Position numbers and translations under genes: made by a program
DNA from: Rhizophagus irregularis
Lineage: Eukaryota
Direction of reading: 5' to 3'
NCBI RefSeq assembly: GCF_026210795.1
Contig: NC_089436.1
Location: forward strand, 2,542,001 to 2,606,000
DNA length: 64,000 nucleotides
In this document: positions 7,661 to 64,000 of the stretch, one piece after another
Layout: every line of letters begins with the position of its first letter
How positions within the stretch are numbered: position 1 is the stretch's first letter
The notes under the pieces: generated by a model
Database searches by the model: none
What the model saw: the letters and a program-made list of their open reading frames with translations, nothing else
What the model was told of the DNA's origin: nothing

Positions 7661-7788
7661 CTATGATATCCAATTGAAAATATTATAAAAGCAGTTAATG
7701 AATTAAATACACAAACGCGCATGGACATTTTTTAAATTTATGATTTTATTTCATTTTATTATTCCTTATTATAATTATTGTCATAGCC

Positions 7789-10700
7789 ATGTTACGAAAT
7801 AAACCTCGAAAAGCGAATATTGCTGCAATACCTTTTCGTATCCGTAATAATTTTAGAAGGTTGCCCAACAGATTTTTATTATCGGATAATGATGACAATG
7901 AAAAAATGGTACAAAAAGATTTTGAAGATGATAATATTAGTGGCGAAGAGTATAATGAATATGGCGACGGAGATGATGATTTAGAACAACGAAGTGATGA
8001 TGATCATATAGAACAGCGAAGCGATAATGGTGATGATTTAGAACAACGAAGCAATGATGATCATTTAGAACAACGAAGCGATAATGATCATTTAGAACAA
8101 CGAAATGATAATGATGATGATTTAGAACAACGAAGCAATAATGAAGAAGGTGATACCAACATGATTTCAACATCATCAGAGAATGAAACAGAAAGCGATT
8201 ATATAATGTCCTTAGAAAGTGATGAAGATTATGAAACAATGTCGTCAGATAATGAAGAAAGACATGATTCTGATATCTCAGAAGAAAAGCTATTCGTTGA
8301 TGAAGCATTGGCTAAAGATAAGTTACCATCTTTTGATGGTGATTTTGCTCCATATTTTCAAAATTTAACTACTGCTGCCTTATTTTGTTGGATTTATAAA
8401 CATAATATTTCAACAAATGCATATGAAGATCTTGTTGACATTATCATGAGACCAGAATTTAATAGAGATCATATTGTAAAGAATATTCGGAGATTTCGAT
8501 CATGGAGGAAGCGTCTTCCTCTTCCCTCAATATCAGCAAAATCTATCTCAATTTCATCAAAAAAAACACCATCAACTTTAAAGGATTCAAAGATGGCATA
8601 TCAACTTTCAATAAGTGATATCATTTGGAATGTTCTTAACAACCCATCACTATTAAAGGAAATGTATTTTGGTGCTGGTGTCGATTCAAAAACAAAATCC
8701 GAGTACTGGCATGGTACCTTATGGGCAGAGTCACCTCTTTTCGGTCAAGAACAATTAATGATATCAGGGGGTAATTATTTATTAAATGCAAGCTGATGGT
8801 AGAGAGGCGAAGCAATAAAGTACAAGAGACTAACACTTTTTTCATATGTATATAATAGAGATATACCAATGCGGCGATTTTGTTTACTATTACGATAATG
8901 AGCGAAAACTTGGCAGATTGAGAGCGATATTATTAAATGAAGAGAACCAACAGTATCGGCTGAGAATCCAAAAAGTTCTAGATTATAGTGACTTGCCTGG
9001 AAATTTTAAGGGAGAATTAAGACAAAATCGCTCTCTTTCCGGAGAAGTTTGGTTACAAGATGAACCATTCTTGACAATAACAACATCACAAATTTCCGAA
9101 AAGGTTGCTGCAGATACACTACGAATTACCGAAGTACTTTATAAACATCATACACACTGGCGCATTCGTGATGCAACGTTCTCTTATCAACATCCTTCAG
9201 AATATATTTCCATAAGGCAGCCACCATCTCCAACAATTCCGGTTTATAAGCTGTTTTTGGACATATACTACGATGATTTTGGAACATTTAGGAATGTTTA
9301 TCATTCGTTAGGAGGTGTTTATGTGCAGTTTGGAAATATGCCTGCCCATCAAAGAAAGTTGCTCAAAAATCACTTTGTTCTCGGGTTTGTTCCTTTCGGT
9401 GGTAATTTCAATGAATTCATGTTGCCATTCATTTCTGAAATGAAAGAATTCGAACAAGGAAAATTAATGGAAGTGAATGGCCAAGATGCTTGGGTGATAG
9501 CCGGTTTAGGTGTCGTAACTGCTGATTTACCACAAGGGAATGACATGTGTGGTGTATTACGACATAATGCCAATAAAGGTTGCCGCACTTGTACAGCCTC
9601 TCGAGAATCACTTACCAACTTCTCTCAGGATGTACCAGCAACATCAAGATATCATCACATCACTGACGATCAATTTAAAGAGATATTTGATGAACCTGCT
9701 ACCACAAGGCAAAGACGACTTTGTACTGAGTTCGGACTAAGAACAAGGCCTAGCATTTTGGATAGGCTGCTAAGAGAAAGGCATCTACAGACACCTCAAG
9801 ATGTATATCATGCAACTGCTGGGAAGATTGGACGACTTCTTAAATTAACGTATGATCTTAGAATTTAATTAACTTTAGCTAGATATGTAACGAACAAAAT
9901 CTTTTAATAAAGCTTTTTGATTTCCACAGGTGCGAATTATTTTCACAAAAAGGAGAGGACGAGTTTATCAAAGCCTGGAAGAACTTAGAGAAACCAAAAA
10001 AATGGTCTCGTTTGCCAAATCCAATTAGCCACAATGCTAGTTTCATGATGTCTGACTATCTTAGGCTCGCTATGATAATGCCTTTTATACTTAATAGTTT
10101 TTTAGAATCATCAAGCTTAAAGGAAAATGAATCCAGAAGCATTCTGCGACGAATTCAAGAATCACGCATTAACATGGCGAAAAATGTAATAATTGCTTGT
10201 TGGGTATATGTAGCAAAAACAATGAGGATAGTTTTTAAAAGCAAGTTTACATTAGATTCGTATGACGAATTACAAAAATGCCTTGAAGAAGAAATGAAAA
10301 TTCTTCCAAAGGTACAATTATTCATAATTCTTATATAATTTTTTATTTTTTATTTATCAATATATAAAATATTATTTAATAATGTGGCTTTAGGTTTTCC
10401 CTGAATTTGCTAACTTACCAAACCTGCATATCAATATCCACTTGCTGGTGCATGCAAGGACTTATGGTACTCTTATAAACACTCAAGTTGGTATCAAAGA
10501 GATGGTGCATCGGATCTTTAAAGCAATGGTACCACAAACAAATTGCAAGAATGTCGAGCTAGACTTGTTAAAGCGGTATACTACGCTCTTTGCAATTCGT
10601 CATTTAGTAGATGGAGGCGCAGATCAAAGATTATCACAACCTTGTAGAGGTTTCGCTACTATGTCCTCAAATTTTAGAAATTTATTGACTAATTGGTATA

Positions 10701-11357
10701 TTACTGAAGACAAGGTATCAAATGAACAAGAACTGGAAGGAAATGAAGAAGGTTTGTATTACAATTTTATAATAATAATATTTCCGCAATTATTAACGTA
10801 TTTTTATTTTATATAGCGATTTCATCTCCAGTGGATTTTATTACAAATATTATCTTAAAGAGGAGCTTATCCGTCAGGATCGCGAAAATATCATGAAAAA
10901 TTTGCCAAATTTCAAATCTGAGCTGCTTCTTTCATTTATGGACATTGGACAAAAGTCAGCTCTTATATATTCTCAAATGAGCTGGTATGAATTGGCGACA
11001 TACACTATGGAAGAAAGCGATGGCGTATTTTCCAAAGTACATCTTCATATTGGTGACGTCGTAACAATACACGAGGAAGACAGTGGTGAATGTTATGCGA
11101 TTATAAAAGGGATCTTCAAATACAAGGGCAATGATGATAAATATTATGCCTTTATTACTATTGATTGGTTTGACAATATTAACAGAATTCACAACGTATT
11201 GAAATGTCCTCTTTTTCGCATTCAGACAAGCCAAGACATTCGCTGGAGAAGAATCTTCCCGATATCAATAATTGACCACGTACAGAAAGTTCACTTTGTC
11301 TATGATACGAAAATTGATTTGTGGATAAAAAATAATTATTATTTTACGGCTATATAG
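7789..11357 (+). CDS. CMC (CACTA/EnSpm-Plavaka-like) DDE transposase with C-terminal BAH-like domain; 5 exons
   Basis: Exons 7789-8770, 8859-9849, 9930-10311, 10394-10751, then 10817 or 10861 to 11357. Motifs: LFLDIYYDDFG..SLGGVY..GN.P, ADLPQGND..G..H.A..GCR.C, QDVYH, PNLH..HL..R.YG..KE..H..FK, and a BAH-like IGDVV..YAII..I..WF. The acidic N-terminus carries six D/H-(L/I)EQR(S/N) repeats. The acceptor at 10816 gives a frameshift; the acceptor at 10860 keeps the frame. Confidence 0.75.
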
Positions 11358-13384
11358 CTTTATTATGCAGTACTATGATTCTTTTCGGTATATTTATTTA
11401 TGATAACGTGATTTATTAAATAAATAAAGATAACGATATCGTTACGATATCGTTTGATATCGTATTCATGAATTTATTAGGCACGTGACTTTGCAATTTT
11501 TATCCAATCAAATCATTGTTTGTTAGACATGTTAAACATTCGCACGATTATGTTTACGTCTACATCTCTCTATTCAATTTTTTTAAATTTTTTTTTAATA
11601 CCGAAAAACATTTTGACAGTTTTTGTTATCAACAGTATAATTTATTCAAAAAAATATATTCATATTAACAATTACAGTCAGACCACTGTATATGCGCGTC
11701 TATTTTTATTCCGGCGTACGACAGGTACATATTCTGCTCTCGCTGGGTTATGTTAAACTATCTTTGACATTTATATAACGCGTCAAAAATAATTACGCGT
11801 TCAGTTTTAATAGTTTTTACCTTTTTATAATAATTTTTTTTTCATATCAATACCCAAAGAAAAAGAATAAAGGGAAAGAAGAAGAAAAAAGAAAAAAACC
11901 ATTGTGAAAAAACGAAAAAGAGAAAACAAAGGAACGAAAAGAAAGAGAGATTATCCTGAAATTTTTTCACAAAAGGTACTACTGTACTTGGGGATCATTT
12001 GAGGGTTTTTTTTTGGCCGCTGATGAAATGCACCATTTTTAAGACCTCTATATGGTAGGCCGTATCATGGAGGCAGGGTATGCACATAGCGAAAGCGCCG
12101 TGCTCCTATGTAATACTTGGGATCTTGTGGTATCAGAAGGTAGTGGTGATGTATCATTGGTCATAGGCAGTTGGGTGCTAATGGCTGACGACCTAAGGGA
12201 CACTCTAATGAGGTAGGCCCCGCCGGACGAGCTCAACCCACTTATTGCATTTTTTGATTCTTAAGGTTGAAAATCTTGGTCAAGTGTTCTGAGACCAATT
12301 TTTATTTTAAAAAAAAATTTCGTTTGATTTCTATAAATGCAGTACTTTAATTTATGCATCTTTTTTAGGATTAACAACCAGCATTTGCAATGACTTTAAT
12401 AAATCTTAAGAACTATCATTTAATTAGGTTGGTTTGTATCTTCAACTCCTGTATTTTCTCATGGACAACTATATGTTGCATGTTCAAGAATAACATCAAG
12501 AAAAAATTTAAATAATTAAATTTTTACTTTATTTCAAGTTTAGGTTTTAACCATTAACTGCTAATGTAGTTAACAGGTGAATCCTAGTAGTATTTAATAT
12601 TTGTGACGAAATCCGATAATGTTGTGCGTAACTACTCCATTATGTTATAATGATATCGTCACGTTGGTTTATGTTAACCATCCGGGGAGAGAGAGATGTG
12701 TCTAATTTACCAGGTACGATCATATCTTTAATTTCGCAGAAACTTGCACCATAATCTGTGTACTTATTAATTTAACAATTGTCACAAAGTTTCGATACAA
12801 TATTAGTGTCATAACAGTTAACCATCTGGAGAGAGAGAGATGTCTAATTTACCAGGTACTTATCTTTAATTTCGCAGAAACTTGCGTTGTATGTAATACA
12901 GACTCTTGTCAATTCAGTATTTGGTATAATATTAGTGTCTTATGTTAACCGTCAGAGAGAGAAGCAATTTACCAGGTGCGTCGTAATCAGGAAACTTACA
13001 TCAATTCAACATTTATAATATTATTGTCATACCGATATTGTCGCATTGTTTTATGTTACTAGAGAGGGATGCGCCTACATAATTTACCAAGTACGATTAA
13101 ACTTCGCAATACTTATCAATTCAACAATTGTGAATCAATAATGACAGAACGTGACTACTTCAAGCTGTAATAACAATGATATCGATACGTTGTTTTTATT
13201 TTTCATTTTGACCATCATAATTGCATATTAATAATATATATGGCATTATCAATTAATAAAAATTATTGAATGTACTAGTACCTACGGTTCACAATTTTTT
13301 CATGACCCAAAATTCTTGTCAAATATCATCTTGATACTGTGTAAATGTCGTCCTGATATCTTAATAATATTTTTAAATGAAATA

Positions 13385-17970: not shown

Positions 17971-20079
17971 TTATGAATATTCAATATCATAAACATCAAT
18001 GTTTAATTGATTCAATAAATTAGTTGCTTTCTCATTATCTTGTAAAGCAGCCTTCATTAACCATCTAATTCCCTCATATTCGTCCTTTGGAATATTACAT
18101 TTTCCTTTATAATATATATCTCCTAAATTAAATTGTGCGGTAGGATTATTTCCTTCACCAGCTGCTTTTTTGAGATATTCCAAAAATATTTGTCGATTAT
18201 TTTCTTCTTCAAGTTTATTTAATAAAGTAAAAGCGTAACGTAGTTGAGCGTCAGAATTTCCTTCATCTGCAGCTTCTTTAAATAATTCTTTGCCTTCTTC
18301 TCGTTCTTTAATACCATCAAGATATCCTTCCCACAAATAACGACCTTTCCAATATTTTGCTGTTGTATTATTATTTTTCGCATGAAAGTCGAAACACTCC
18401 CATGCTTTTTGATGTTTTTCAGCTTTAAAAGCTTTTATACCTTCTTCTAATGAAATTACTGGTTTAAAAATAACAGGACTAATAACTTCATCCGGTAATT
18501 CTAAATCAGCATCAGCATTACTAATATACTTTGACGAATCTAGGGATTTATCGCGAAGTATATCTGTTGGATTCATACGAATAGAATTATGTAGTTCTTC
18601 TAACATATCTAATAATTTCATAAAAGAGATACGTTCTTGTGGATTTTGCTTCCAGGCTATGAATATAAAAAATTAAAGAATAAACATTAAAATCCTCCTC
18701 AAAATATTAATAATAATAACTTATTTATTATTATAAAAAAAAAAAGAATACTTACTATCATTTATAATTTTTTTGATTTTTTGATTTTCAGGAGTTGAAA
18801 TTTCGAATGTAATTCTTTCTCTATGGCCTTTAATAACATGTTTCTTAATTTTATCTATTTCCCAACCTTGATATGGAATTTTTTCAAAAGTAAGTTCCCA
18901 AAGTAACATGCCAAAACTAAAAATTTCACATTGAATTGTATATCGAGAATTGGTTAATTTCTCAGGAGCTGAACAATGAACTATATTGTCTGCCTTAGTT
19001 GGATCCATTAAATATGAAGTAGTGATTCCATCAGAATCGTAACGAGCCAACTCAAAATTATAAATTTTAGGTTCTAAAGTTTCTGTCATTAAAATATTAT
19101 TACATCCCAAGTCATGATGCAAAATACCAGCACATTGTAAAAATATGAGGCCACGACAGATTTCAAGAGCAATTCGGATCTTATAATGAAATGGTATATC
19201 TTTTTGTTCATAAAGCTGCCTCAAAGATCCACGTTCAGCCCATTCAAAAACCATAACATTACGATTTTCAATTGTTGACATACCATAAAATTTAAGAATA
19301 TGTTTACATTCAGACGATTTCATTAAAATTTCATGAATTTTTTGTGTTCTTGAACACGTTTTCATTTTTTCTTCGTCATTTGAAATGTATTTACAAGCTA
19401 CCTCTAATCCTTTATAAGTTTTCTTAATTATAAAATTAGGATCACATCCACGTTTGTCAGTAGATTTTACAGATATTAAGTCTTTTGAGTCAATCTTATT
19501 TACGTTATATGAAACATCTGAATGGTTTCTCATATGTTTCACCGCATCATAAATAAAGTCAATTTTGTTGTTAACTTCGTTGTTATTTTCAAGAATATCG
19601 TTATGCATTTTTTTAATATAATTGCTCATTTCGTCCAGATCATCCTTTAGCGCTTCTTCTTCAATTTTTCTTTGTTCTTCACTAGCAACTGCCATAGTAA
19701 AATGTAAATCCTTCATTGCAACATCATAATCATTTGTAAGTTTTTGAAATTTATTTTTAACAAAATCTGCTTGCGTATACTTTTTTAAACCACGAATATT
19801 TGAAATTTCCGCAGCAAATTTTTCAATTTCTTCTAAAACATATATGAATCTGTTAAACGCTTTATAATAAACCTCATCATTAAATATATCTACATTTTTT
19901 TGTTTCCTACGTTGTAATGTATCGATAGCGTTCTCAGTTAATTTCACTCGGTTTACTAGAGCTTCGCAAATATTTTTGTTATATTCTGCCGTTTCATAAA
20001 TTTTTACAATTTTAATAATTAAATCTGTAGCCTTGTCAATTAAGGGTATATACGGGGCAAAAATTCCAACGGATTCCAT
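17971..20079 (-). CDS. A1: MLKL-like N-terminal helical (4HB/HeLo-like) domain + coiled-coil brace + pseudokinase + Sel1-like repeats (~669 aa)
   Basis: complement(18756-20079, 17971-18656), intron GTAAGT...ATAG. N-terminus PYIPLI..A..LI.KI..IYETAEYNKNICEALVNRV. Kinase fold has VACK, no GxGxxG, HHDLGCNN, YNFE for DFG, and APE. C-terminus has Sel1 motifs (AKYWKGRYL, AQLRYA, AQFNLGDIYYKG). Confidence 0.85.
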
Positions 20080-20849: not shown

Positions 20850-23368
20850 ATGTCTCTTCTAAAATCTATAAAATCGGCATTTAAGTCGAAGAAGAGTAAG
20901 AAGAGTAGAAAACCGATAAACGGTGCTATCATTAATGAGGAAAGAAGTAATAATTGGATAAATAATTTAATTAAAGAAGAACAAATTGAATTCTATAATT
21001 ATTCGGACTTTAAAGATAAGAGAACAATCGAAGAAAAAGGGAAAACCATCATTATTGCTAATTTAAAAGATGAAATTTTTGTTTTGAAATCATTTTATAA
21101 TGATGATGCAACTCTTCACAAAGCTATCAATGAGGTATAAATGTTTACATATATCCTAAGCTTCAATTAAATAAGAAATTAATTTAGATTACCGTATTTT
21201 ATTTCAGTTAAAATTACATAATAAATTTGTTCATGAAAATATCTTACGATTTTACGGAATTACGGAAAACGGTACGATAAGCAATATTAAATCTTGACGT
21301 AATTAATATAATGAAACCATGGATGTAATTTATTTTCTTTTTTCAGATTTTCCTCAAACGTCTCTAAAAAATAAGTACATTTTAGTTTTGGAATATGCTG
21401 ATAGTGGTACATTAAGTACTTATTTAGATAAGCATTTTAATGAACTTAATTGGAATGATAAATATAAGTTTGCATTTCAAGTAGCAAGTGCTGTATCATA
21501 TTTACATGATAATGATATTATTCATTATGACATGGTAATCTTTATACATTCTATTTTTAAGTATTGGGAGAATTAGTAATTTATTCTTTGTTTTATTTAA
21601 AATAATAGCATGAAAACAATATACTTGTGCATCAAAAGAATGTTAAATTAGCGGATTTTGTATTTTCAAAAGAAGCAGAATCACTTAATACGGTACAAAT
21701 ATTTAGTATGATACCTTACGTAGATCCAAAAAGTTTCAATACTAAAAATTATGAATTGGATAAACGGTCTGACGTATACAGCATTGGTACGATTTTATGG
21801 CGAATTTCAAGCAGAGTTAAACCATTCCATCTTGAAAGTTACAATGTAGTATTAGCAACTGCTATATTAAATGGTCGGAGAGAACGTATTGTTAATGGAA
21901 CTCCACCGGAATATAGTGAATTATATATAGGTAAAAAAACTTATTCATTATATAATAATCGAATAATATAATATTAATTAATCTATTAATATAGAATGTT
22001 GGAAACATGAACCTGATGAACGACCAGATATGCGAAAAATTATTTCGACCCTTGAAACTTTTTTAAATGAGTTTGTGTTACCTGAAATCATTAATGATAA
22101 AGATAATGAAGGAATAAAAGATGATGCAGTTGAACTTTTAAATCAGTTCATTTCGCTTAAAATTTCTGATAATGAAGTTCTTAAAAATAGCTTGAAAAAT
22201 AAAGAAGCTATATTCATTCCATTTAATAATTTAGAGGATCCAAGCCCACTTGGTAAAGGAGGTTATGGATCTATTACGAGAGCAGTTTGGACCAAAACTA
22301 AAAACTTTGTTGTTTACAAAAGATTTATTAACCATGATAAATATAATGCATTTGATGTATTTATCCATGAATTAAAAATTAATTTATGTCTGCCTTATTA
22401 TACTAGTGATAGAATTATACGTTGCTTGGGTATTAGCCAAGGTAATTAAAATACTTTTTTATTAAAATTTTATTTTATTTTGTTTTTAATAGCATCTCTT
22501 TTTTAGACAATACGACAAAAGAATATTTACTTGTTATGCCATATGCTAATGGTGGTAACCTTCAAAATTATCTTAACAATAATTTTAAGAGCTTAAGTTG
22601 GGATGACAAGAAAAAGTTGGCATTTCAAATTGCAGAAGGGCTAAATTATTTGCATAACGAAAATATATTACATAAGGATCTGGTAAGTGTACTTTTTTTA
22701 AATTTATATGTGTTTAAAACGACCTAATAATTCTTTTTTATTTATTTTAGCATTCTAAAAATATAGTTATTCATGAAAATAATGCTAAAATTATAGACTT
22801 TGGTATTTCGAAAATTCAAGATCAAATATCTGCAGAACATGCGCATAGTAATCGTGGTATTATTGCATATATGGAACCTAAACGTCTTTCAGATCCAAAA
22901 TTCCCATATACTAAATCTTCAGATGTTTATAGCTTTGGTGTATTGATGTGGGAAATTTCCAGTGGTTACCCTCCATTTAAAGATTGTATTACAGACAAGG
23001 AAAAAATTGCACTTATTTGTGCTGGAATACGTGAAACTCCATTTCTTGAGACTCCTAAAGAATATGAAGAACTCTATATAAAATGTTGGGATCAAGAACC
23101 TGAACAAAGACCAAATACTGGTGAAATATTAGATGAATTTAAAAAAACAAGACTTGAAGAAAATAAATTTATTGAAGGTATATTATTGATTGTTTTTATG
23201 TATTATGTTTAAATTTGATATTATATTAATTAAAATGAAATCTATAGAAAAAAGCGATAGTTGTAATTCAGATTTAATAGGTAATTTGTTTTTATTATTA
23301 TTTTAAAGTGTAAAACATAACTAAATTTATTATATCATTTGTATTTAGTTACAACCAAAACTGCGTAG
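20850..23368 (+). CDS. B1: tandem kinase (degenerate kinase + intact TKL-type non-RD kinase), 9 exons, ~653 aa
   Basis: Exons 20850-21134, 21208-21271, 21347-21534, 21609-21930, 21995-22441, 22507-22682, 22751-23177, 23248-23280, 23349-23368, all GT-AG and in frame. Domain 1: no Gly-loop, HYDMHENN, DFV. Domain 2: GKGGYG, VVYK, HKDLHSKN, DFG, YMEP, DVYSFG. Confidence 0.85.
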
Positions 23369-30137: not shown

Positions 30138-32586
30138 TCACCATCTAGCATCATCTGGTAATTCTAAATCATCATCTATATCTAAATTTTTCTCGGGAAG
30201 TAAACCTAATGAATTTACGTCAAACATACAACGAATAGAATTATACAATTCTTCCAACATATCCAATAATTTCGTAAAAGAGGAAATACGTTCTTGTGGG
30301 TCTTGCTTCCAAGCTATAGTATTTATAAATTAAAATGTATATTTTAAGTACATCATACTCAATAAAAATATATAATGAAGATTCTTTAAACAAAATACTT
30401 ACTTTCGTTTATAATATTTTCACAGCCTTTTTGATAAATTTCAGGAGCTTCAGCTCCAAATAAAATTCTCTCTCTACCACCATTAATAATATGATCCTTA
30501 ATTTTTTCTACTTTCCAACCTTTATATGGAACTTTTTCAAAAATAAGTTCCCAAATTAACATACCAAAACTAAAAATTTCACCCTGAGTTGTATATTGGG
30601 AATCAGTTAATTTTTCAGGAGCTATCCAACGCAATATATTTCCCGCTTCTTCTACCGAAGGATCTGTAACATTATTATCACCAGAATAACGTGCTGACTC
30701 AAAATTATAAATTTTGGGTTCTAAACTTTCTGTCATTAAGATATTTTGACATTTCAGGTCATTATGTAAAATACCATCCTCTTGTAAAAATGTGAGTCCA
30801 CGACAGATTCCAAGTGCAATCCGGACCTTACAATGCCATAAGATATTTTTTTTTAAATAAAGTTGTCTTAAATTTCCAAGTTCAGCCCATTCAAAGATCA
30901 TAACATTATGATTTTCAATTGTCGAAATACCGTAAAATCTTAGAATATATTTACACTCAGATAATTTCATTAAAATTTCAAGAAGTCTTTGTGATTTTGA
31001 ACTCGTTTTAATTTCTTCTTTGTTAGTTGATATGGATTTACAAGCTACTTCTTGTCCCTTATAAATTTTTTTAACTACAAATTTACCACGCCGGTCATCA
31101 GGTTTTCTTATTTTAGGATTAGTTAAATCTTTTGAATCAACCTTATTTACACGAAGTAAAGTCTTTTTATATGTGAGTTTGGTGATTAATTGATCAAGAA
31201 TTAAAGCAACTTCTCGAATATTTGGACGTTCATCTGGTTCATAATTCCAACAGTCTAAATTAAAAAAAATCGATAAATCAATATATTAGACTTTATAATA
31301 TTTAAACTTGGAAAATCAATTGCATAATTAGACGTAGGTAGCTGAACTGTTTCTTGCTCGTAATCTTTATCCAAAGATTGAAAAGCATTTTATCATCGAG
31401 CAAAATGTTGCAAGATGTAACGCTCTTGTCCTTGGTGATAATTGAGATCTCATTACTGAGCGCAGTAGCTTATACCATCTAACAACAAATCTTTACAATG
31501 AAAACATCAAATTACCTGTATACAAGTCACTGTATTCTACAGGGGTGCCATTGATAGTTTTTTCTCTTTCTCCGTTTATTATCTCTGAGCTTAACCTTAT
31601 ATTATAACTAATTTTTTCAAATGGTTTACGTCCACTTGAAATTTGCCACATTATAACTCCAACACTATATACATCGGATTTCTTATCTAATTTATAATTT
31701 TTGTTATCGAAGCATTTCGGGTCTATATATGGTATTACACCAATTACACTACTAGTTTCATTAGATATTTCATTAGATATTTGTTTCGATAAACCAAAAT
31801 CCGCTAGTTTGATATTTTTTTGATGTATAAGTATATTGTTTGCATGCTGTTAAATTAAAAAGAATTAATTTAATTAGTTAAATTGCAAAAAATAAAATCA
31901 ATTACATATTAAATATTACCAGATCACAATGAATGATATTATTATCGTGCAAATGTGACACAGCATTTGCTAATTGCAAAGCTAATCTAAATTTATCATT
32001 CCAATCAAGTTCATTAAAATGGTCGTTCAAATACGTGTTTAGTGTGCCACTATCAGCATATTCTAATACTAGACAATATTGATAAGCTGCATCTATAAAA
32101 AAATAAATAAAAAAAAGTTATTTCATGTAGTAAAAGAATGAAAGAAAGAATTAATTTGTCATACCGTTATCTGTTTTTGTGTATCCGTAGAACCGCAGAA
32201 TATTTTCGTGATGAACAAGCATGTGTAATTTTAACTAAATCATTTCAAACTGGATTGTATTAGAATTTATATATTACAATCGAAAGTATAATTATAATTA
32301 ATACCTCTCTAACGATAAGAGTTGTCCTATCGCTATAAAAAGATTTCAAAGCAAAAATTTGATTTTTCCGAGTAGCACATGATACAATTCCGTAGGAACC
32401 CCTGCCTATTATTTGAACGGATTTGAAGTCCGAATAATCATATTTTTTACCTATTGATTCTAACCAATTGGTTGACTCCTTATACTTTGAAAATTTTTTT
32501 GGCAACGTCTTCTTTAGCAAACACTTGCTGGATTTTATTTGTTTTTTAAAAGACTTGAAAAGTGTCATTTTCAGTTTAAGTTTCAT
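30138..32586 (-). CDS. C: chimeric kinase-pseudokinase (B-type kinase fused to A-type NFE pseudokinase; no MLKL-like N-terminus, no Sel1), 6 exons, ~627 aa
   Basis: complement(32305-32586, 32165-32234, 31920-32092, 31516-31846, 30403-31254, 30138-30313). Domain 1: GRGSYG, FALK, HCDLHANN, DFG. Junction within exon 5: [10 protein letters not shown]...[12 protein letters not shown]...GQEVACK. Domain 2: [15 protein letters not shown]. Stop follows [12 protein letters not shown]. Confidence 0.8.
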
Positions 32587-33209
32587 TTTTGAGAATCTTC
32601 GTATATTTATAGAAGTCGTCTAAGAAACACCGAAACACCGGAATTTGACTCCCGTTGTTATGTATAAATATTTATTTTTGGAGGATTGTTTCATTTATTT
32701 ATATGGAAATTCATATACACATGATTTCACACGAAGGGTGTTACAGATTTCCTAAAATGTTAAAATAATAAGGGATAAATCGGAATCCATTACATTCTTT
32801 CTAGAAGAATAACGTAATGCGTGACAAACAATCCAACTATACAATTAGTGGAAATTGATCAGCAGCATGCTGAAACTGAGTGAGAAATTATAATTTTTTT
32901 TTTTATATTTTGATAGTTATATAAAATTTTAAACTTTGAGGCGATAAGAATGCTAATCTGTTGACCCCTGTTTATTTATTTATCATGTACTAAAAACAAT
33001 TAGGATCATCATATCTGCATTTTTATTAGCAATAAATGATCATCTGATTTTATTTGTTGAACGAAGGATGAAAATGGAATATACAAATACAAATATAACC
33101 AAAATAAAAAATAAATTAATAGTTATAATAGGAATAATACGGTAATAGCTACGAAGATACTAATATAAAAATAATAAAGTAATTTTATATATGACTATTT
33201 CTATTTGTA

Positions 33210-34484
33210 CACTAGTGTGCGAAACACGTATCACGTGAACATATAAAATTTTTATTGGCTAATTTTTCGATTTTATTAATTTAATTAATCAATAAAAATT
33301 GACTTTATTAAATCACATTACATAATGTTTTGATACAAAGGTGTTATAATACATAAGGAAAGAACAAAAAAAAAAATACAATAAGGAAGGATAAAGTGAA
33401 AGATCAAGGGAAAATAAAGGAAAGAAAGATCATAAATTAAAAAGATGGAGATGAACTAAAAGGAAAGTGATGATAAAAACGAAATACAATGAAAATGATG
33501 GTGAAAAATGAAATACAACGAAAGGTGATGATGAAAAACGAAATACAATGAAAAGTAATGATGAAAAGCGAAAGGTAATGAAAAATGATGATGAAAAACA
33601 AAATACAACGAAAGGTGATGATGAAAAAAGAAATACAACGAAAGGTGATGATGAAAAACGAAATAAAACGAAAGATGATGATGAAAAACGAAATACAATG
33701 AAAAGTAATGATGAAAAATGAAATGCAACGAAAGGTAATGATTAAAAACGAAATACAACGAAAAGTGATGATGAAAGGTGATGATGTAAAACGAAATATA
33801 ACGAAAATTAGTTATTAAGAACGAAATATAACGATGACAAATGAAATTGATGATGAAAAACGAAACATAGTGAAAATTGGTGAAAAACGAAATGTAACGA
33901 AATTTGATGATAAAAAATGAAAGATGACGAAAAAGAGATAGATAAACAATAAAGGATGAAGGGAAATGAAAATGAATGAAAAATAATAAAATAAATGAAA
34001 AGGGATAAAGGAAATAACAGGTAAATGAAAAGAAACAAAGGAAAACGAAAATAAACAAAAAAAAAATAATGAAACAAAGGAAATGAAAATAAATAAAAGG
34101 AAAAAATAAGTGAAAAAAATAAAGGAAGAACCGAAATATCCACCCATAATAAAAGGAAAAAAGGAACTGGTTAATATTGTCTTAAAGCAGTCAGCAAAAA
34201 AATATAAAATAACTGAATGAAAAGGACTCACCTTGAATTTCTGCTGAAATGAAAACTGAAAACAGTCGCGCCTAAAAAAGAAATGAACGAGTTACAAAAG
34301 AAAGGAAAATAGAAGTGAAAAAAAAATAAAAAAGAAAAGGAAGAAAAGACTTACCTACTGTATTTGAATCCCAAAGCTAAATTACAAAAAATTCGAATAT
34401 CAGTGGCGTGAAATTTTCGAAAATAAAAATGGGTGTAAGTGTGTAACATAGGTGAACACATGACTTGTGTTTCGCACACTAGTG
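33210..34484. mobile_element. Non-autonomous CACTA-type element with purine-rich interior and 30-bp tandem repeats
   Basis: TIR CACTAGTGTGCGAAACAC / GTGTTTCGCACACTAGTG with TA on both flanks. Internal GATGATGAAAAACGAAATACAACGAAAG-like ~30-bp repeats at ~33470-33900. Confidence 0.8.
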
Positions 34485-34723
34485 TAAATTAAGCTAAAGT
34501 GGCAAGAAATAGTGCTCAAATTCATATAATTGTATAAAAAGGGTTCGAAGCCACTTTATAATTCCACAAATCTAGTAATATTACGATATGCTTTTAGAAT
34601 AGGTGTCTAAGTTTATTAACAAAATTTAATAATCAGTCGTTTATATCAATAGATTTATCAAAAAAATTGACAATTCCAAAATTATAGTCACGTGGTTAAA
34701 AGGTAGTCATTGTGCAGATAATA

Positions 34724-35041: not shown

Positions 35042-37168
35042 TTATGAACACTTGTTAATATCATAAACATCTACTTTTAACTGATTCAATAATTTAGTTG
35101 CTTTAGAATTATCCTGTAGAGCAGCCTTTATTAGCCATTTGATTCCCTCATTTTCGTCCTTTGGGATATTACATTTTCCTTTATAATATATATCTCCTAA
35201 ATTAAATTGTGCGACAGGATTATTTCCTTCATCAGCTGCTTTTTTGAGATATTCCAAAAATATTTGTTGATTATTTTCTTCCTCAAGATCATTTAATAAA
35301 GTAAAAGCGTAACGTAGCTGAGCATCAGAATTCCCCTCATCTGCAGCTTCTTTAAGTAGTTTTTTACCTTCTTCTTCCCGTTCTTGAATATCGTCAAGAT
35401 ATCCTTCCCACAAATAACGACCTTTCCAATATTTTGCTACTATACTATTATTTTCTGCATGAAAGTCGAAGCATTCCCATGCCTTTTGGTGATCCTTATC
35501 TTTAAAAGCTTGTATACCTTCTTCTATTGAAATTACTGGTTTAATAGGACTAACGTTCTTATCCGTTAATCCTAGATCAGCATCACTTGTTTCTTTTGAT
35601 CCACTTAACTCTAACTTATCAGGAAGAATATCTAATGAATTGTTGTCTGCAATACGAATGGAATTGTATAATCCTTCTAACATATCCAATAATTTCATAA
35701 AGGAAATACGTTCTTGTGGTTCTTGTTTCCAAGCTGTAGATATAAAAAATTTAAAATGTACAATTTTTAGTGTGGACCTTATAGTAAAAGTATAAATGCG
35801 TTATAACGCAGAGATATTTTAAAGAAATTACTTACTGTCATTTATAATTTTTTTATATTCTTCTTGACATATTTTAGGAGTTGAAGACTCAAATGTAATT
35901 CTTTCTCTGTGACCTTCAGCAATATGCTCCACAATTTTTTTTGCTTCCCAACCTTGATATGGAATTTTTTCAAAAACAAGCTCCCAAAGTAACATACCAA
36001 AACTAAAAATTTCACATTGGGTTGTGTATCGAGAACCGGTTAATTTTTCAGGAGCTAACCAAGGAATTATGTCTCCAGCAGCGGTTACATCTATCGGTAA
36101 TGAAGTAGTATTTTTATCAGAATAATTTGCTAACTCAAAATTATATATTTTAGGTTCTAAATTTTCTGTTATTAAAATATTTTCACATTTCAGGTCGTGA
36201 TGCAAAATATCAGCGTATTGTAAAAAAATAAGGCCACGACAAATTTCAAGAGCAATTCGAACCTTATAATGCCATAAGATGTGTTTTTTTAAATATAGTT
36301 GTCTCAAAGTTCCACGTTCAGCCCATTCAAAAACCATAACATTGTTATTTTCAATTATTGAAACACCATAAAATCTAAGAATGTGCTTACATTCAGATAA
36401 TTTTACTAAAATTTCAAAAAGTCTTTGTGTTTTTAAACACGTTTTGGATTTACAAGCTACCTCTAGTCCTTTATAAATTTTCCTAATTATAAAGTTAGGG
36501 CCTTTACCACGTTTGTCATCAGATTTTACTCGTAAGGGAGATGTTAAATCTTTTGATTCAATTTTATTAACGTAATATAAAGGTTTTTCATCATCTAAAT
36601 GCTTCTTCATATGTTTTACCATATCATGAATAATGTTGGCTTTATCGTTATTATCAAGAATATCGGTACGTATTTTTTCAAGATATTTTGACATTTCGGC
36701 AAGATCTTCCTTTAAAGCTTCGTCGTCAATTTTTTTTTGTTCTTCGTTAGCAATTGCCATAGTAAAATGTAAATCTTTCATTGCAATGTCATAATCATGC
36801 GTAAGTTTTTGAAACTTTTCTTTAACAGAATATGCATTTGTATATTTTCTAAAACCATGAATATTTGTGATATCCGCAGCAAATTCTTTAATTTCTTCTA
36901 AAACATAAATGAACCTGTTAAAAGCTTTATAATACTCATCATCACAAAGTTTATCCTCATTTCTTTGTTTTCTACGTTGTAATGTTTCAATAGCATTCTC
37001 AGTTAATTTCACTCGGCCTACTAGAGTTTCGCAAATGTTTTTGTTATATTCTGCCGTTTTATATATGTCTATAATTTTTTCAACTAAATCTGTAGCTACT
37101 TTAATTAAGGGCATATATGGACTAATAGCTTCTCCAGCGGCCCTTATAGTCTTTATAGTCTCTTCCAT
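35042..37168 (-). CDS. A2: MLKL-like domain + pseudokinase + Sel1-like repeats (~674 aa)
   Basis: complement(35836-37168, 35042-35733); ATG at 37168 (the ORF-track start is a GTG). VACK, HHDLKCEN, YNFE, APE; same intron position as A1. Confidence 0.85.
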
Positions 37169-37976: not shown

Positions 37977-40498
37977 ATGTCTCAAATAAAATTAACAAGT
38001 CCTTTAACTTCCAAAATAGCTTTCAAATCAATATTTACTAATAGGCGAAAACCAAGTATAGAAAAAAAAGATACCAATAATACAGAGAAAGTCGATCGGT
38101 TAGAAACTTTTATTAACGAAAATAAAATCAATTGCTATGCATATTCGGACTTTAAATCTGTTCAACAGATCAACAGAGAAACTTCCTTCATAAAACGCGC
38201 TATTTTAAATGATGAATTTTTCGTTTTGAAATCCTTTAATAATGATGATGAAACTATTCGCCAAATCGTTTGTGAGGTACATTTGTTCTGAGCTCCGATT
38301 AAATAATGGTCAATTTATTTTATTAATACTTTTACATATATCAGTTAGAATCGCTACGTACTATTATTCATGAAAATATTCTAAAATTCCACGGAATAAT
38401 AAGGATAGAAGACGGTACGATAAAAAAAAATTAATAAATTATATCCTAACCACCGATGGTGTTCAGGTTCATTAAACAAACTTACTTTTTTTTCAGGCTT
38501 ACCCAATATGTATAAACATATTTTGGTTTTGGAGTATGCTAATAATGGTTCATTAAGTGCTTATTTAAGAGAACAAATTAATAAACTTGATTGGAAAAAT
38601 AAACTTAGCTTAGCTTTACAATTAGCGAAAGCGGTTTCATATTTACATGACAATGATATTATTCATCGTGATCTGGTAACATTTATTCAATTTTTATAAA
38701 TTGATTATTTAATGCAAATAATATTGAATTTCTTTTTTAACAAAAAATAGCAAGCCAATGAAATACTTATACATCAGAAAAGTATTAAACTTGCAGCTTT
38801 TGGTTTGCCATCAGTAGTAACTAAAGATACACTATCTTTATTTGATACTATACCTTATATGGATCCTATAAATTTCGATTGTATAGAAAATTGTGAATTA
38901 GATAAACGTTCTAATGTGTACAGTATTGGCGTACTTTTATGGCAAATTACAAGCGGTCGTAAACCATTTTATACTGAGAGGCCTGATGTGGAATTAGCAA
39001 AAGCTATATTTCGTGGAAGGAGAGAAGAAACCGTTATGGGAACTCCAATGGAATATAGTAGATTATATAAAGGTAACAATATTTAATTCACTCTCTAACT
39101 AAAAATTCTAACATAATAATTTATTTATTTATTTAGAATGCTGGAATCATGAACCAAATAAACGACCAGACATGAAACGAATTGTTTCAAATCTTAATCA
39201 GTTATTATTAGCTGAAAACTCATCACCTACTAATTCTCAAAAAGAAAAGAAAGACGATGCAACTAAATGGGTTGAAAATGTCTTGAAAAATAAAAAAGTT
39301 GATTTCATACCTTTAAATGATTTGAAAGATCCAGAGCCACTTGGTAAAGGGGGTTTTGGATATATTAAGAAAGCAATATGGACCAGAACTGGAAAATATG
39401 TTGTCTATAAAAGATTAATTAATACAGATGCTGTCAAATACAATACGTTGGATGCATTTATTCATGAATTGAAAATACATTTACATCTATCTATTTATAG
39501 CGATAGAATTGTACGTTGCTTAGGCATTAGCCAAGGTAATTAAATAAATATTTTTAACTTTAAAAATATTTAATTATCCTAAAATAATTTTTCCTTTTTT
39601 TAGATGATATAACACAAGAGTATTTGCTTGTTACACAATTTGCTGATGGTGGAGACCTTCGAAATTATCTCAAGAAAAATTCTAAGAATTTAACTTGGGA
39701 GGACAAGAAAAGATTAGCATATCAAATTGCAGATGGGCTAAATTATCTGCACAATGAACAAGTTTTACATAAAGATTTAGTGAGCACCTTTTTTTTATAT
39801 ATTATTTGATTATTTAATTATTTATTGTTAATTAATTATTTTATTCTAGCATTCCAAAAATATAGTTATCCATGAAAATAATGCTAAAATTATTGATTTT
39901 GGTATTTCAAAAATTCAAGATCGAACATCTGCAAGTTATACACGTGGCCGTGGTATTATTGCCTACGTAGATCCTAAACGTCTTTTGGATCCAAATTCTT
40001 CATATACTACAGCTTCAGATATTTATAGTTTAGGTGTATTAATGTGGGAAATTTCCAGTGGGTATCCTCCCTTTAAAAATAGTAGTTTTAGCGAAGGTGA
40101 TCAAGCTGCATTGAGTGCTTCTATTTGTAATGGGAATCGGGAAAAAACAATTCCTGGTACTCCTGAGAAATATGGAGAACTTTATAGAAGTTGTTGGAAT
40201 CATGAACCTAATGAAAGGCCAACTATGAATAAAATACTCGATGAATTTGTAAAATGGGGGTTTGGAGTTAATTCTGGCAAAAAAAATAAATTTATACAAG
40301 GTAACGTGTGTGCACATTACTTTATTGTTCTTAAATATTATTTAATTAATACTATTTAAATCATGCAGAATCTACGGATGATGACGATGACGACGATGAT
40401 AACGATTTAGTCGGTAAGTATATTTCTTTTTGTTTGTATTTTAAAGATTTAAATTTAAATATTTATTTAATTATTTAACCATTTTAGTTAAGACTTAA
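37977..40498 (+). CDS. B2: tandem kinase (pseudokinase + intact non-RD kinase), 9 exons, ~650 aa
   Basis: Exons 37977-38276, 38345-38414, 38497-38675, 38751-39072, 39137-39535, 39604-39779, 39850-40300, 40369-40413, 40488-40498. Domain 1: no Gly-loop, HRDLQANE, AFG. Domain 2: GKGGFG, VVYK, HKDLHSKN, DFG. Acidic tail; intron pattern identical to B1. Confidence 0.85.
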
Positions 40499-62511: not shown

Positions 62512-64000
62512 TTAATCATAGACACCTACTCCCAATTTCTTTAATAAATTGATTGCTTTAATATTATCTTGTAAAGCAGCTTTTCTTAACCATTTAATTC
62601 CTTCAACTTCATCTTTTGGAGTATTACATTTTCCTTTATAATATATATCACCCAAATTAAATTGTGCAGTGGGATTATTTCCTTCATTAGCAGCTTTTTT
62701 AATGTATTCCATAAATATTTTTTGATTTTCTTCTTTATCAAGAAATTGTTTAAAAGTAAAAGCATAACGTAATTGAGCATCAGAATTTCCTTCATCAGCT
62801 GCTTCTTTAAGTAATTTTTTACCTTCTTCTTCACGTCCTTTAATATCATTAAGAAGTCCATCCCATAAATAACGACCTTTCCAATATTTTGCTGTCGTAT
62901 TCTTATTTTCTGCATGAAATTCAAAACATTCCCACGCTTTTTCATGTTCTTTATTTTCAAAAGCTCTTATTCCTTCTTCTAATGTAATTACCGGTTTTAT
63001 AATAACAGGACTAATTTCCTCATCTGGTAATTCTAAATCATCAATACCATCTTTTGATCCATCTAAATCCAAGGTTTTATCAGGGAGTAAACCTAGTGAA
63101 TTATCTTCAAACATATAACTAATAGAAGTATATAATTCTTCTAACAAATCTAATAATTTCATAAAAGGAATACGTTCATGCGGATTTTGCTTCCAAGCTA
63201 TAAATATAAAATCGATAATTAAAATACAATACATCGTAATGTTTGTCTAAAAATAATAATAATAATAATAATAATAATTTTTACTTACTGTCACTTATAA
63301 TATTTTTATATTCATTTTGATAATTTTCAGGAATTGAAGACCCAAATGTAATTTTTTCTCTACCACTTTTAGTAACATGATCCACAATTCTTTCTATTTC
63401 CCAACCCTGATATGGAACTTTTTCAAATGTAAGTTCCCAAAGTAACATACCAAAACTAAAAATTTCGCATTGTGTTGTATAAGGTTTATTGTTTAATTTT
63501 TCGGGAGCCATCCAACGTAATATATCTCCTATCGTTTGATCCATAGTAGTAGTTTTCCAATCAAAAGAACGTGCTAACTCAAAATTATAAATTTTAGGTT
63601 CTAAACTTTCTGTCATTAAAATATTTTCACATCTCAAATCATGATGTAAAATGTCAACATGTTGTAAGAATATAAGGCCACGACAAATTTCAAGAGCAAT
63701 TCGAACTTTATAATGCCATTTGATATCTTTAACTTCATAAAGTTCTTTCAAAGTTCCACGATCAGCCCACTCAAAAATCATAACATTACGTTTTTCAATT
63801 GATGAAATACCATAAAATTTAAGAATACGTTTACATCCAACAGATAATTTCATTAAAATTTCAAGAAGTCTTTGTGTCTTTTGACTCGGTTCAATTTCAT
63901 CCTCAGTAAATTTACAAGCTACATCTTGTCCTTGATAAATTTTCTTAATAATATATTTAGGTTCTTTACCACGTTTATCATCAGGTTTTCCTCGTATAGG
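62512..64000 (-). CDS. A4: pseudokinase + Sel1 paralogue of A1-A3, 5' part outside the window
   Basis: complement(63289->64000, 62512-63197); VACK, HHDLRCEN, YNFE, APE; same intron and same Sel1 tail. Confidence 0.8.

What the first reader, a model, noticed from the sequence alone, without database searches (positions are those of the whole stretch)
30138..32586. 'Rosetta-stone' fusion of B-type kinase and A-type pseudokinase
Seen: gene C lies between the two pairs. Its first four introns match the positions of B-gene domain 1 and its last intron matches the single A-gene intron. The switch occurs inside one exon ([10 protein letters not shown]...VNKVDSKDL). It lacks the putative killer domain and stops just before the Sel1 repeats. 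Its first kinase keeps GxGxxG, K, HxD..N and DFG, which B1 and B2 have partly lost. Inference: the fusion supports a functional A-B link, and C may be a decoy, an inhibitor or an independently born tandem kinase.
Basis: partly seen in the sequence, partly recalled or inferred. Interest (0 to 1): 0.8.

Follow-up and report, generated by a model that had tools for sequence, protein, structure and literature searches.

The report
Fungal kinase fused to MLKL pseudokinase
In the root-symbiotic fungus Rhizophagus, a spliced and conserved gene joins a likely active kinase to the switch domain of neighbouring MLKL-like proteins, and it would likely regulate a cell-death or self/non-self system encoded by this highly variable gene cluster.

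Summary
Gene C is real. It has six exons and 627 codons. All five introns are spliced in RNA contigs, and the fusion junction is bridged by spliced contigs from three studies. Relatives with the same layout occur in R. irregularis, R. clarus, R. diaphanus and Glomus cerebriforme.

Its second domain groups with the local A-type MLKL-like pseudokinases. Its first domain is not a copy of B1 (AU p=0.010). It is a sister lineage of all B domain-1 kinases, with which it shares a polybasic leader (11 of 12 B/C proteins against 2 of 67 others). The intron match is weak evidence, because unrelated kinases share two of the positions. B genes keep an intact second kinase that C lacks, so the 'Rosetta-stone' A-B link is only partly supported.

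New here: the cluster segregates as deeply divergent haplotypes within R. irregularis (C against C' 78% identical; flanking A4 about 99%), as non-self-recognition loci do. My best reading is a fungal kinase-pseudokinase, born independently of plant tandem kinases, that regulates neighbouring MLKL-like executors. The function is untested.

The parts
30138..32586 (-). Gene C, 6 exons, 627 aa: polybasic leader, kinase, MLKL-type pseudokinase, short acidic tail
   Evidence: gene model; RNA contigs; relatives
32305..32586 (-). C exon 1: polybasic leader (about 32586-32446, net charge +11 in the first 30 aa; alternative start 32568) and kinase N-lobe with Gly loop and Lys
32165..32234 (-). C exon 2
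   Evidence: both flanking introns skipped in RNA contigs
31920..32092 (-). C exon 3, ending in the HCDL part of the catalytic loop
31516..31846 (-). C exon 4: catalytic Asn, DFG, C-lobe of kinase 1
30403..31254 (-). C exon 5: end of kinase 1, fusion junction (about 31171-31150) and most of the A-type pseudokinase (no Gly loop, [15 protein letters not shown] in place of DFG)
30138..30313 (-). C exon 6: end of the pseudokinase and A-type linker; stop just before the position where A's Sel1 repeats begin
17971..20079 (-). A1: MLKL_N-like helical bundle, pseudokinase, Sel1 repeats; head-to-head with B1 (770 nt apart)
20850..23368 (+). B1: polybasic leader, degenerate kinase 1, intact kinase 2 (653 aa)
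   Evidence: identical to P0238; motifs
35042..37168 (-). A2: MLKL-like gene directly upstream of C on the same strand; head-to-head with B2
   Evidence: model pLDDT 80; top Foldseek hit full-length MLKL 4btf
37977..40498 (+). B2: pseudokinase-kinase tandem (650 aa); lies in tandem upstream of A3, the layout from which a deletion would give a C-type gene
41753..43890 (+). A3: MLKL-like gene
62512..64000 (-). A4 (cut by the window end): fourth MLKL-like gene, the conserved anchor of the cluster

Best explanation
C is a spliced, conserved tandem kinase gene whose first domain is a sister lineage of B domain 1 and whose second is an A-type MLKL-like pseudokinase, and it likely works as a membrane-associated switch kinase that controls the neighbouring MLKL-like A proteins. 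Origin (inferred, about 0.85): in this tandem array an ancestral B-family gene, with its basic leader and a still intact domain 1, lay upstream of an A gene on the same strand. An in-frame deletion removed B's domain 2 and A's helical bundle, and the Sel1 tail then eroded. This happened before Rhizophagus and Glomus cerebriforme split, and the fusion later duplicated into at least three lineages (C/C', C2, C3). Mechanism (inferred, untested): the basic leader would bring C to the membrane. The A-type pseudokinase would hold kinase 1 in check and dock C on A or B partners. Disturbance of that module by a non-self or microbial factor would release kinase 1 to phosphorylate an A protein's pseudokinase and expose its helical bundle, as RIPK3 does to MLKL, in the sensor-executor logic of wheat tandem kinases.
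For: Shown: intact ORF and exact splicing in RNA contigs of 3 studies. Purifying selection: 12 of the 23 coding differences listed between RNA contigs and the window are synonymous, against 21% expected (p=0.001); paralogue dN/dS is 0.31-0.51. Lys, Glu, HxD, Asn and DFG are kept in 7 of 7 C-type proteins aligned but in only 1 of 8 B domain-1 sequences. The pseudokinase nests among local A genes. The kinase sits in one clade with B domain 1, and the tree with C sister to all B is not rejected and scores slightly higher than the free tree (p=0.54). Basic leader in 11 of 12 B/C proteins against 2 of 67 others. A truncation series of A's Sel1 start is visible in C2, C3 and P0243. The A2 model's best PDB match is full-length MLKL over 468 columns; MLKL_N hits 49 of 60 A proteins. 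By accession order, C or C' stays next to an A2-lineage gene in two R. irregularis haplotypes and in R. clarus, and every haplotype seen carries at least one C-type gene. Haplotype divergence is deep: C/C' 78%, A2/A2' 82%, A3/A3' 83%, B2/B2' 60-62%, against 98.7-99.7% for A4.
Against: No kinase activity, binding or killing is shown for any gene here. The catalytic loop is HxDLHxxN throughout this family, without the usual Lys, and its activity is untested. MLKL_N scores for the window's A genes are below Pfam's cut-off (23-25 bits against 27), and the MLKL match has rmsd 15.9 and TM 0.32/0.51. Adjacency to A2 may only reflect birth in place. One haplotype appears to lack C, though it then also lacks A2, B2 and A3 and keeps C2. 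Kinase and Sel1 genes are high-copy, fast-turnover families in this fungus (PMC8647823, passages), so chimeras can arise without a functional link. The direction of control (activator or brake) is not constrained by any result.
Confidence: 0.38

Rival explanations
1. C is a brake. Having lost the killer bundle, its A-type pseudokinase sequesters the kinase that would activate A (likely B domain 2) or poisons A oligomers, as poxviral MLKL does, and so protects the syncytium from its own executors.
For: C lacks the helical bundle but keeps the pseudokinase. It is present in RNA from root and rhizosphere samples of several studies. Every haplotype carries a C-type gene, and C is absent only where A2, B2 and A3 also seem absent. 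Viral MLKL is a precedent (PMC13519141, passages).
Against: Viral MLKL also truncates its activation loop and loses the phospho-sites. C keeps a 25-residue segment with Ser/Thr, within the A range of 23-27. A pure decoy would not need the catalytic motifs of kinase 1, which 7 of 7 C-type proteins keep.
Confidence: 0.25
2. C is a chimera produced by routine rearrangement in a tandem kinase array. It was kept as one more signalling kinase and has no special link to A or B proteins.
For: Kinases are joined to whole A genes in 19 of 220 proteins (12 with a kinase score of at least 160 bits; some may be merged gene models), and three such kinases lie in three other places in the tree. Intron positions are shared more widely. 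These are high-copy gene families (PMC8647823, passages).
Against: C has been retained since the Rhizophagus / G. cerebriforme split, has duplicated into three lineages, and is under purifying selection in both halves. All C-type genes that could be placed by accession order lie beside A or B genes of this cluster.
Confidence: 0.3
3. C is an assembly chimera or an untranscribed pseudogene.
For: No full-length 627-aa record of this haplotype was retrieved among 108 + 15 hits. Only 171-aa and 186-aa fragments and a 547-aa model with two internal gaps were found.
Against: Spliced RNA contigs cross the junction in 3 studies. 14 DNA runs of 5 studies hold 96-100% of the sampled words, though 12 are flagged as possible sources. 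The same junction is present in R. clarus and R. diaphanus proteins.
Confidence: 0.01

Closest known systems
Plant tandem kinase proteins (WTK1/Yr15, RPG1, WTK3/RWT4 with the NLR WTN1)
   Same: Two kinase folds in tandem, one predicted catalytic and one pseudokinase; birth by fusion of different subfamilies; location beside a putative death executor (PMC8761531, passages; 10.1101/2024.08.30.610185, abstract).
   Different: Fungal, and built from Glomeromycota kinases. The pseudokinase is taken from an MLKL-like executor. The neighbouring executors are MLKL-like Sel1 proteins, not NLRs. No ligand or phenotype is known.
RIPK3-MLKL necroptosis pair, and plant MLKL helpers such as wheat R3AK
   Same: A has a helical bundle plus pseudokinase whose best structural match is MLKL. 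C physically joins a kinase to that pseudokinase. MLKL can act as the executor in a paired locus (10.64898/2026.08.07.743466, abstract).
   Different: A carries C-terminal Sel1 repeats. C has no bundle. No RHIM or amyloid motif was looked for. Specific homology of the pseudokinase to MLKL, rather than to tyrosine kinases, is not shown (MLKL is 9th by sequence; BTK leads by Z-score).
Poxviral MLKL decoys
   Same: An MLKL-type pseudokinase that has lost the four-helix bundle (PMC13519141, passages).
   Different: C is host-encoded, keeps its activation segment, and carries an intact kinase in front.
Glomeromycotina MLKL-Sel1 proteins (TCDB 1.A.105 homologues)
   Same: The A genes are these proteins; they were noted as Glomeromycotina-specific with Sel1 repeats (PMC8778642, passages).
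   Different: The passages read name no partner kinases, fusions, gene clusters or haplotypes.
Coprinopsis cinerea somA incompatibility locus, and ascomycete het loci
   Same: Repeated kinase/partner gene pairs with highly divergent, copy-number-variable haplotypes beside a conserved flanking gene (10.64898/2026.06.24.733965, passages).
   Different: somA pairs kinases with NACHT proteins and is mapped genetically. Here the partners are MLKL-like and no phenotype is known.
Janus kinases
   Same: A pseudokinase in tandem that restrains a kinase (PMC13519141 and PMC8761531, passages).
   Different: The domain order is reversed, there are no receptor-binding domains, and C arose by fusion with an executor gene.

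Membership tests
Tandem kinase-pseudokinase (architecture) | Two kinase folds in one polypeptide | tested here: met
   spliced RNA
Tandem kinase-pseudokinase (architecture) | One domain with the catalytic motifs, one without | tested here: met
   By motifs only: domain 1 has K, E, HxD, N, DFG; domain 2 lacks the Gly loop and has NFE
Plant TKP immune receptors | Domains from plant receptor-like kinase subfamilies | not tested
   No plant sequence was put in a tree; the nearest relatives found are all Glomeromycota
Plant TKP immune receptors | Effector sensing that triggers a paired executor | not testable with these tools
   needs cell assays
MLKL family (gene C) | N-terminal four-helix bundle | tested here: not met
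   The N-terminus is a kinase; no MLKL_N or bundle hit
MLKL family (A genes) | Four-helix bundle plus brace before a pseudokinase | tested here: inconclusive
   MLKL_N in 49 of 60 A proteins but under the cut-off for window genes; top Foldseek hit 4btf, E 2e-14, rmsd 15.9
MLKL family (A genes) | Membrane permeabilisation after phosphorylation | not testable with these tools
   needs experiment
Viral-MLKL-type decoy | Loss of the killer bundle | tested here: met
Viral-MLKL-type decoy | Activation loop truncated, phospho-sites removed | tested here: not met
   25 residues with Ser/Thr in C (21-22 in P0001 and P0221) against 23-27 in A genes
Viral-MLKL-type decoy | Sequesters the upstream kinase | not testable with these tools
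   needs binding assays
Rosetta-stone pair (A-B) | Both halves exist as separate genes in the same genome | tested here: met
Rosetta-stone pair (A-B) | Fused halves are orthologous to the specific separate genes | tested here: inconclusive
   Descent from the B1 lineage rejected (p=0.010); sister to all B allowed (p=0.54); sister to Sel1 kinases allowed (p=0.28)
Rosetta-stone pair (A-B) | Domains are not promiscuous | tested here: not met
   The same kinase family joins Sel1, TPR, SH3, other kinases and whole A genes
Fungal allorecognition locus | Highly divergent haplotypes within a species | tested here: met
   60-83% between haplotypes against about 99% for A4; gene order read from accession numbers
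Fungal allorecognition locus | Trans-species polymorphism | tested here: inconclusive
   C groups with R. clarus at 82/86 (unstarred); the alternative grouping is not rejected, p=0.167
Fungal allorecognition locus | Incompatibility cell death on fusion of unlike haplotypes | not testable with these tools
   needs anastomosis assays

The most novel reading that the evidence does not exclude
This cluster is a necroptosis-like non-self-recognition locus of arbuscular mycorrhizal fungi. MLKL-Sel1 executors are paired with tandem kinases, and C is a fungal counterpart of plant tandem-kinase sensors that was built from the executor's own pseudokinase. Ancient haplotypes, possibly older than the species, would decide which isolates can fuse.
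Probability: 0.22. Interest if true: 0.88.

Novelty: new variant of a known kind. Interest (0 to 1): 0.58.

Why it matters
The molecular basis of non-self recognition and regulated cell death in arbuscular mycorrhizal fungi is an open question (own knowledge). The 2025 review of fungal cell death has no occurrence of 'mycorrhiz', 'Rhizophagus' or 'Mucoromycot'. This locus offers named, expressible candidates (A, B, C) and naturally segregating haplotypes, so the question becomes testable in yeast and in anastomosis assays. If C controls A, kinase-to-MLKL signalling and tandem-kinase sensors would extend to fungi by convergence. If not, C remains a well-documented case of gene birth by in-exon fusion, and a corrected gene model.

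Tried and rejected
Structure and binding: AlphaFold2 of the R. clarus C relative with 7 sequences failed (pLDDT 35) and was not used. A complex prediction of that relative's kinase 1 with the A2 pseudokinase gave no verdict (score 0.01, alignments not used), which is no evidence either way. The VIA re-alignment listed only kinase-domain matches and did not test the bundle. The Atlas search returned only generic Mucoromycota kinase clusters.

Genomes and reads: no whole genome is held for this window. Contiguity of the junction in independent DNA runs, and expression of A and B, remain untested. The metagenome scan gave 7 loci of 178 candidates; none is C-type (six match A-type genes and one matches only a pseudokinase).

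Range: among the best 150 cluster representatives, only P0003 and P0243 join kinase 1 directly to a high-scoring A pseudokinase. Low-scoring Gigaspora multi-kinase proteins (P0282, P0361) were set aside, so no C-type gene was found outside Glomeraceae; this is weak evidence of absence.

Other checks: no coding remnant was found in C's long intron 4 or its flanks. Single or multiple origin of the three C lineages is unresolved (one clade in 0 of 200 bootstrap trees, but AU p=0.36). Earlier scan notes: none found. Rejected: assembly chimera; pseudogene; duplication of one kinase (C's two domains are 26% identical); descent from the B1 lineage.

Full report
Setting. The window is 25-30% GC with short GT-AG introns. 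Proteins identical to its B1, A2, A3 and A4 are in the collection, and B1, A2 and A3 are named Rhizophagus irregularis. The region holds four A genes (helical bundle, pseudokinase, Sel1), two B genes (two kinase folds) and gene C. A1/B1 and A2/B2 are head-to-head about 0.8 kb apart. C lies 2.5 kb downstream of A2 on the same strand.

Observation. C domain 1 is 53% identical to B1 domain 1. C domain 2 is 60-65% identical to A1-A4. The two C domains are only 26% identical to each other.

Is it real? 14 DNA runs from 5 studies hold 96-100% of the sampled words, but 12 are flagged as possible sources. Four RNA runs were laid. Three give spliced contigs across the junction; one 1697-nt contig runs from exon 3 through the 3' UTR. 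The fourth gives a 151-nt piece over the junction. All five introns appear as exact skips. These are contigs, about 98% identical to the window, and they do not reach the start codon. Of 23 coding differences listed (25 further rows were not shown), 12 are synonymous against 21% expected (p=0.001). Pairwise dN/dS to paralogues is 0.33-0.51 for the pseudokinase and 0.31-0.39 for the kinase.

Relatives. 7 of 108 longer homologues have the same kinase-then-A-pseudokinase layout: R. clarus (2), R. diaphanus (1) and R. irregularis (4). A partial one occurs in Glomus cerebriforme. They form three lineages, C/C', C2 and C3. C2 and C3 still carry the first residues of A's Sel1 region, P0243 a few, and C none, which fits progressive erosion of a whole A tail. 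No full-length record of the window's own C was retrieved; I found only fragments and a 547-aa model with two gaps.

Where the halves come from. In the pseudokinase tree (41 rows chosen from 105 domains), all C types lie in a 21-row clade with A1-A4 and G. cerebriforme A genes (95/96*); one origin is neither recovered nor rejected (p=0.36). In the kinase tree (48 rows: 46 chosen from 127 domains, plus 2 gapped C-type domains), C types plus one single kinase form a clade (98/95*), B domain 1 forms another (100/97*), and three single or Sel1 kinases form a third. All sit in one 19-row clade (98/97*). Descent from the B1 lineage is rejected (p=0.010). Sister to all B (p=0.54) and sister to the Sel1 kinases (p=0.28) are not. 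Both trees used LG+G4 without the mixture model. An independent character favours B: a polybasic leader in 4 of 4 C and 7 of 8 B proteins against 2 of 67 others (related proteins are not independent counts). One B (P0117) still has an intact domain 1. So C's kinase likely came from an early B-family gene, before that domain decayed. B2 followed by A3 on one strand shows the layout from which one deletion would give C (inference).

Limits of the Rosetta-stone argument. B1 and B2 keep an intact domain 2 (LGKGGxG, VVYK, HKDLHSKN, DFG), and C has none of it. Intron 3's position is shared with B domain 2, and intron 1's with a distant kinase on L003. Kinases are joined to whole A genes in 19 of 220 proteins from several genera, 12 with strong kinase scores; some may be merged gene models. 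The fusion thus links A to this kinase family, but does not prove that A and B interact.

Is A an executor? The A2 model (pLDDT 80) has full-length MLKL as its top PDB match (E 2e-14, 468 columns, rmsd 15.9). MLKL_N hits 49 of 60 A proteins, below the curated cut-off for the window's genes. For C's pseudokinase alone, MLKL ranks 9th behind tyrosine kinases. The architecture is MLKL-like; killing is untested.

Haplotypes (new here). Gene order was read from consecutive accession numbers on single contigs, so orientation is unknown. One R. irregularis type matches the window (C2 ... C, A2, [B2 inferred], A3 ... A4). A second has A4 ... A3', C', A2', B2', B, A ... C3, B, and R. diaphanus shares the part from A4 to A. 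A third has C2, A1, B1 and then A4 within three numbers, so it seems to lack C, A2, B2 and A3. R. clarus has B, A4 ... kinase+A2, C, A1, B1 ... C2. A4 is 98.7-99.7% identical across R. irregularis records and 90% to R. clarus. In contrast C/C' are 78%, A2/A2' 82%, A3/A3' 83% and B2/B2' 60-62% identical, and C is 81% identical to R. clarus C. No listed contig carries both C and C'. Trans-species sharing is suggested (82/86) but not shown (p=0.167). Ancient paralogues with reciprocal loss would look the same. The pattern resembles the kinase/NACHT somA incompatibility locus of Coprinopsis (10.64898/2026.06.24.733965, passages).

Mechanism. Shown: the anatomy, expression, constraint, origin and polymorphism. 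Inferred: membrane targeting by the basic leader, activity of kinase 1, restraint and docking by the pseudokinase, and phosphorylation of A. I favour a switchable activator (0.38), because the catalytic motifs are kept in 7 of 7 C types and the activation segment is not truncated as in viral MLKL. A brake (0.25) and an unlinked kinase (0.30) remain open.

Literature. Nine full-text searches were seen as listings with abstract starts. None listed a description of this fusion, of tandem kinases paired with MLKL-like genes in these fungi, or of this cluster. Passages read: PMC8778642 (MLKL-Sel1 homologues only in Glomeromycotina), PMC10197012, PMC12881547, PMC8761531, PMC9815663, PMC8647823, PMC13519141 and 10.64898/2026.06.24.733965. 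Abstract and outline only: 10.64898/2026.08.07.743466 and 10.1101/2024.08.30.610185. No supplements were read; genome papers' supplements and subscription journals may mention these genes. The labels A, B, C, C', C2 and C3 are working names.

Verdict. C is a real, old and maintained fusion, a new fungal variant of the kinase-pseudokinase architecture. It lies in a cluster with the population signature of a non-self or immune locus. Its function is not shown. Interest 0.58.

Noticed in passing
window 33208-34486: Element between A2 and C with 30-nt terminal inverted repeats (87% complementary, TA at both outer ends) enclosing a 30-nt minisatellite; likely a non-autonomous DNA transposon in C's upstream region.
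   Followed up: no
window 31255-31515: C intron 4 is 261 nt, against 70-89 nt for C's other introns and 64 nt for the matching B intron; no coding remnant found.
   Followed up: partly
window 45979-47589 (-): 537-codon frame with a weak NAL1_N hit (E 1.5e-4) and a GDSG motif, suggesting a trypsin-like protease inside the cluster; proteases control other fungal death systems (link from own knowledge).
   Followed up: no
window 47910-49874 (-): Sel1-repeat-only frame, 16 matched repeats.
   Followed up: no
window 62512-64000 (-): Fourth A gene, far more conserved than A1-A3 (one 90% cluster with R. clarus); a B-type gene is its neighbour by locus tag in R. clarus.
   Followed up: partly
window 7744-11756 (+): Run of long frames with no convincing Pfam match and raised GC.
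   Followed up: no
proteins P0008, P0018, P0030, P0038, P0043, P0044, P0047, P0138, P0179, P0246, P0247, P0259; P0022, P0158, P0196: Kinase fused before, or after, a whole MLKL-like protein in Rhizophagus, Diversispora, Funneliformis and Gigaspora; real fusions or merged gene models.
   Followed up: partly
L003 2330-3510 and 4600-6235: A distant kinase directly upstream of an A-type gene on the same strand in a metagenome contig.
   Followed up: partly
C catalytic loop, about 31930: C and C' are non-RD (HCD) while R. clarus C, C2 and C3 are HRD; non-RD kinases are common in plant and animal immune signalling (recalled, no call).
   Followed up: no
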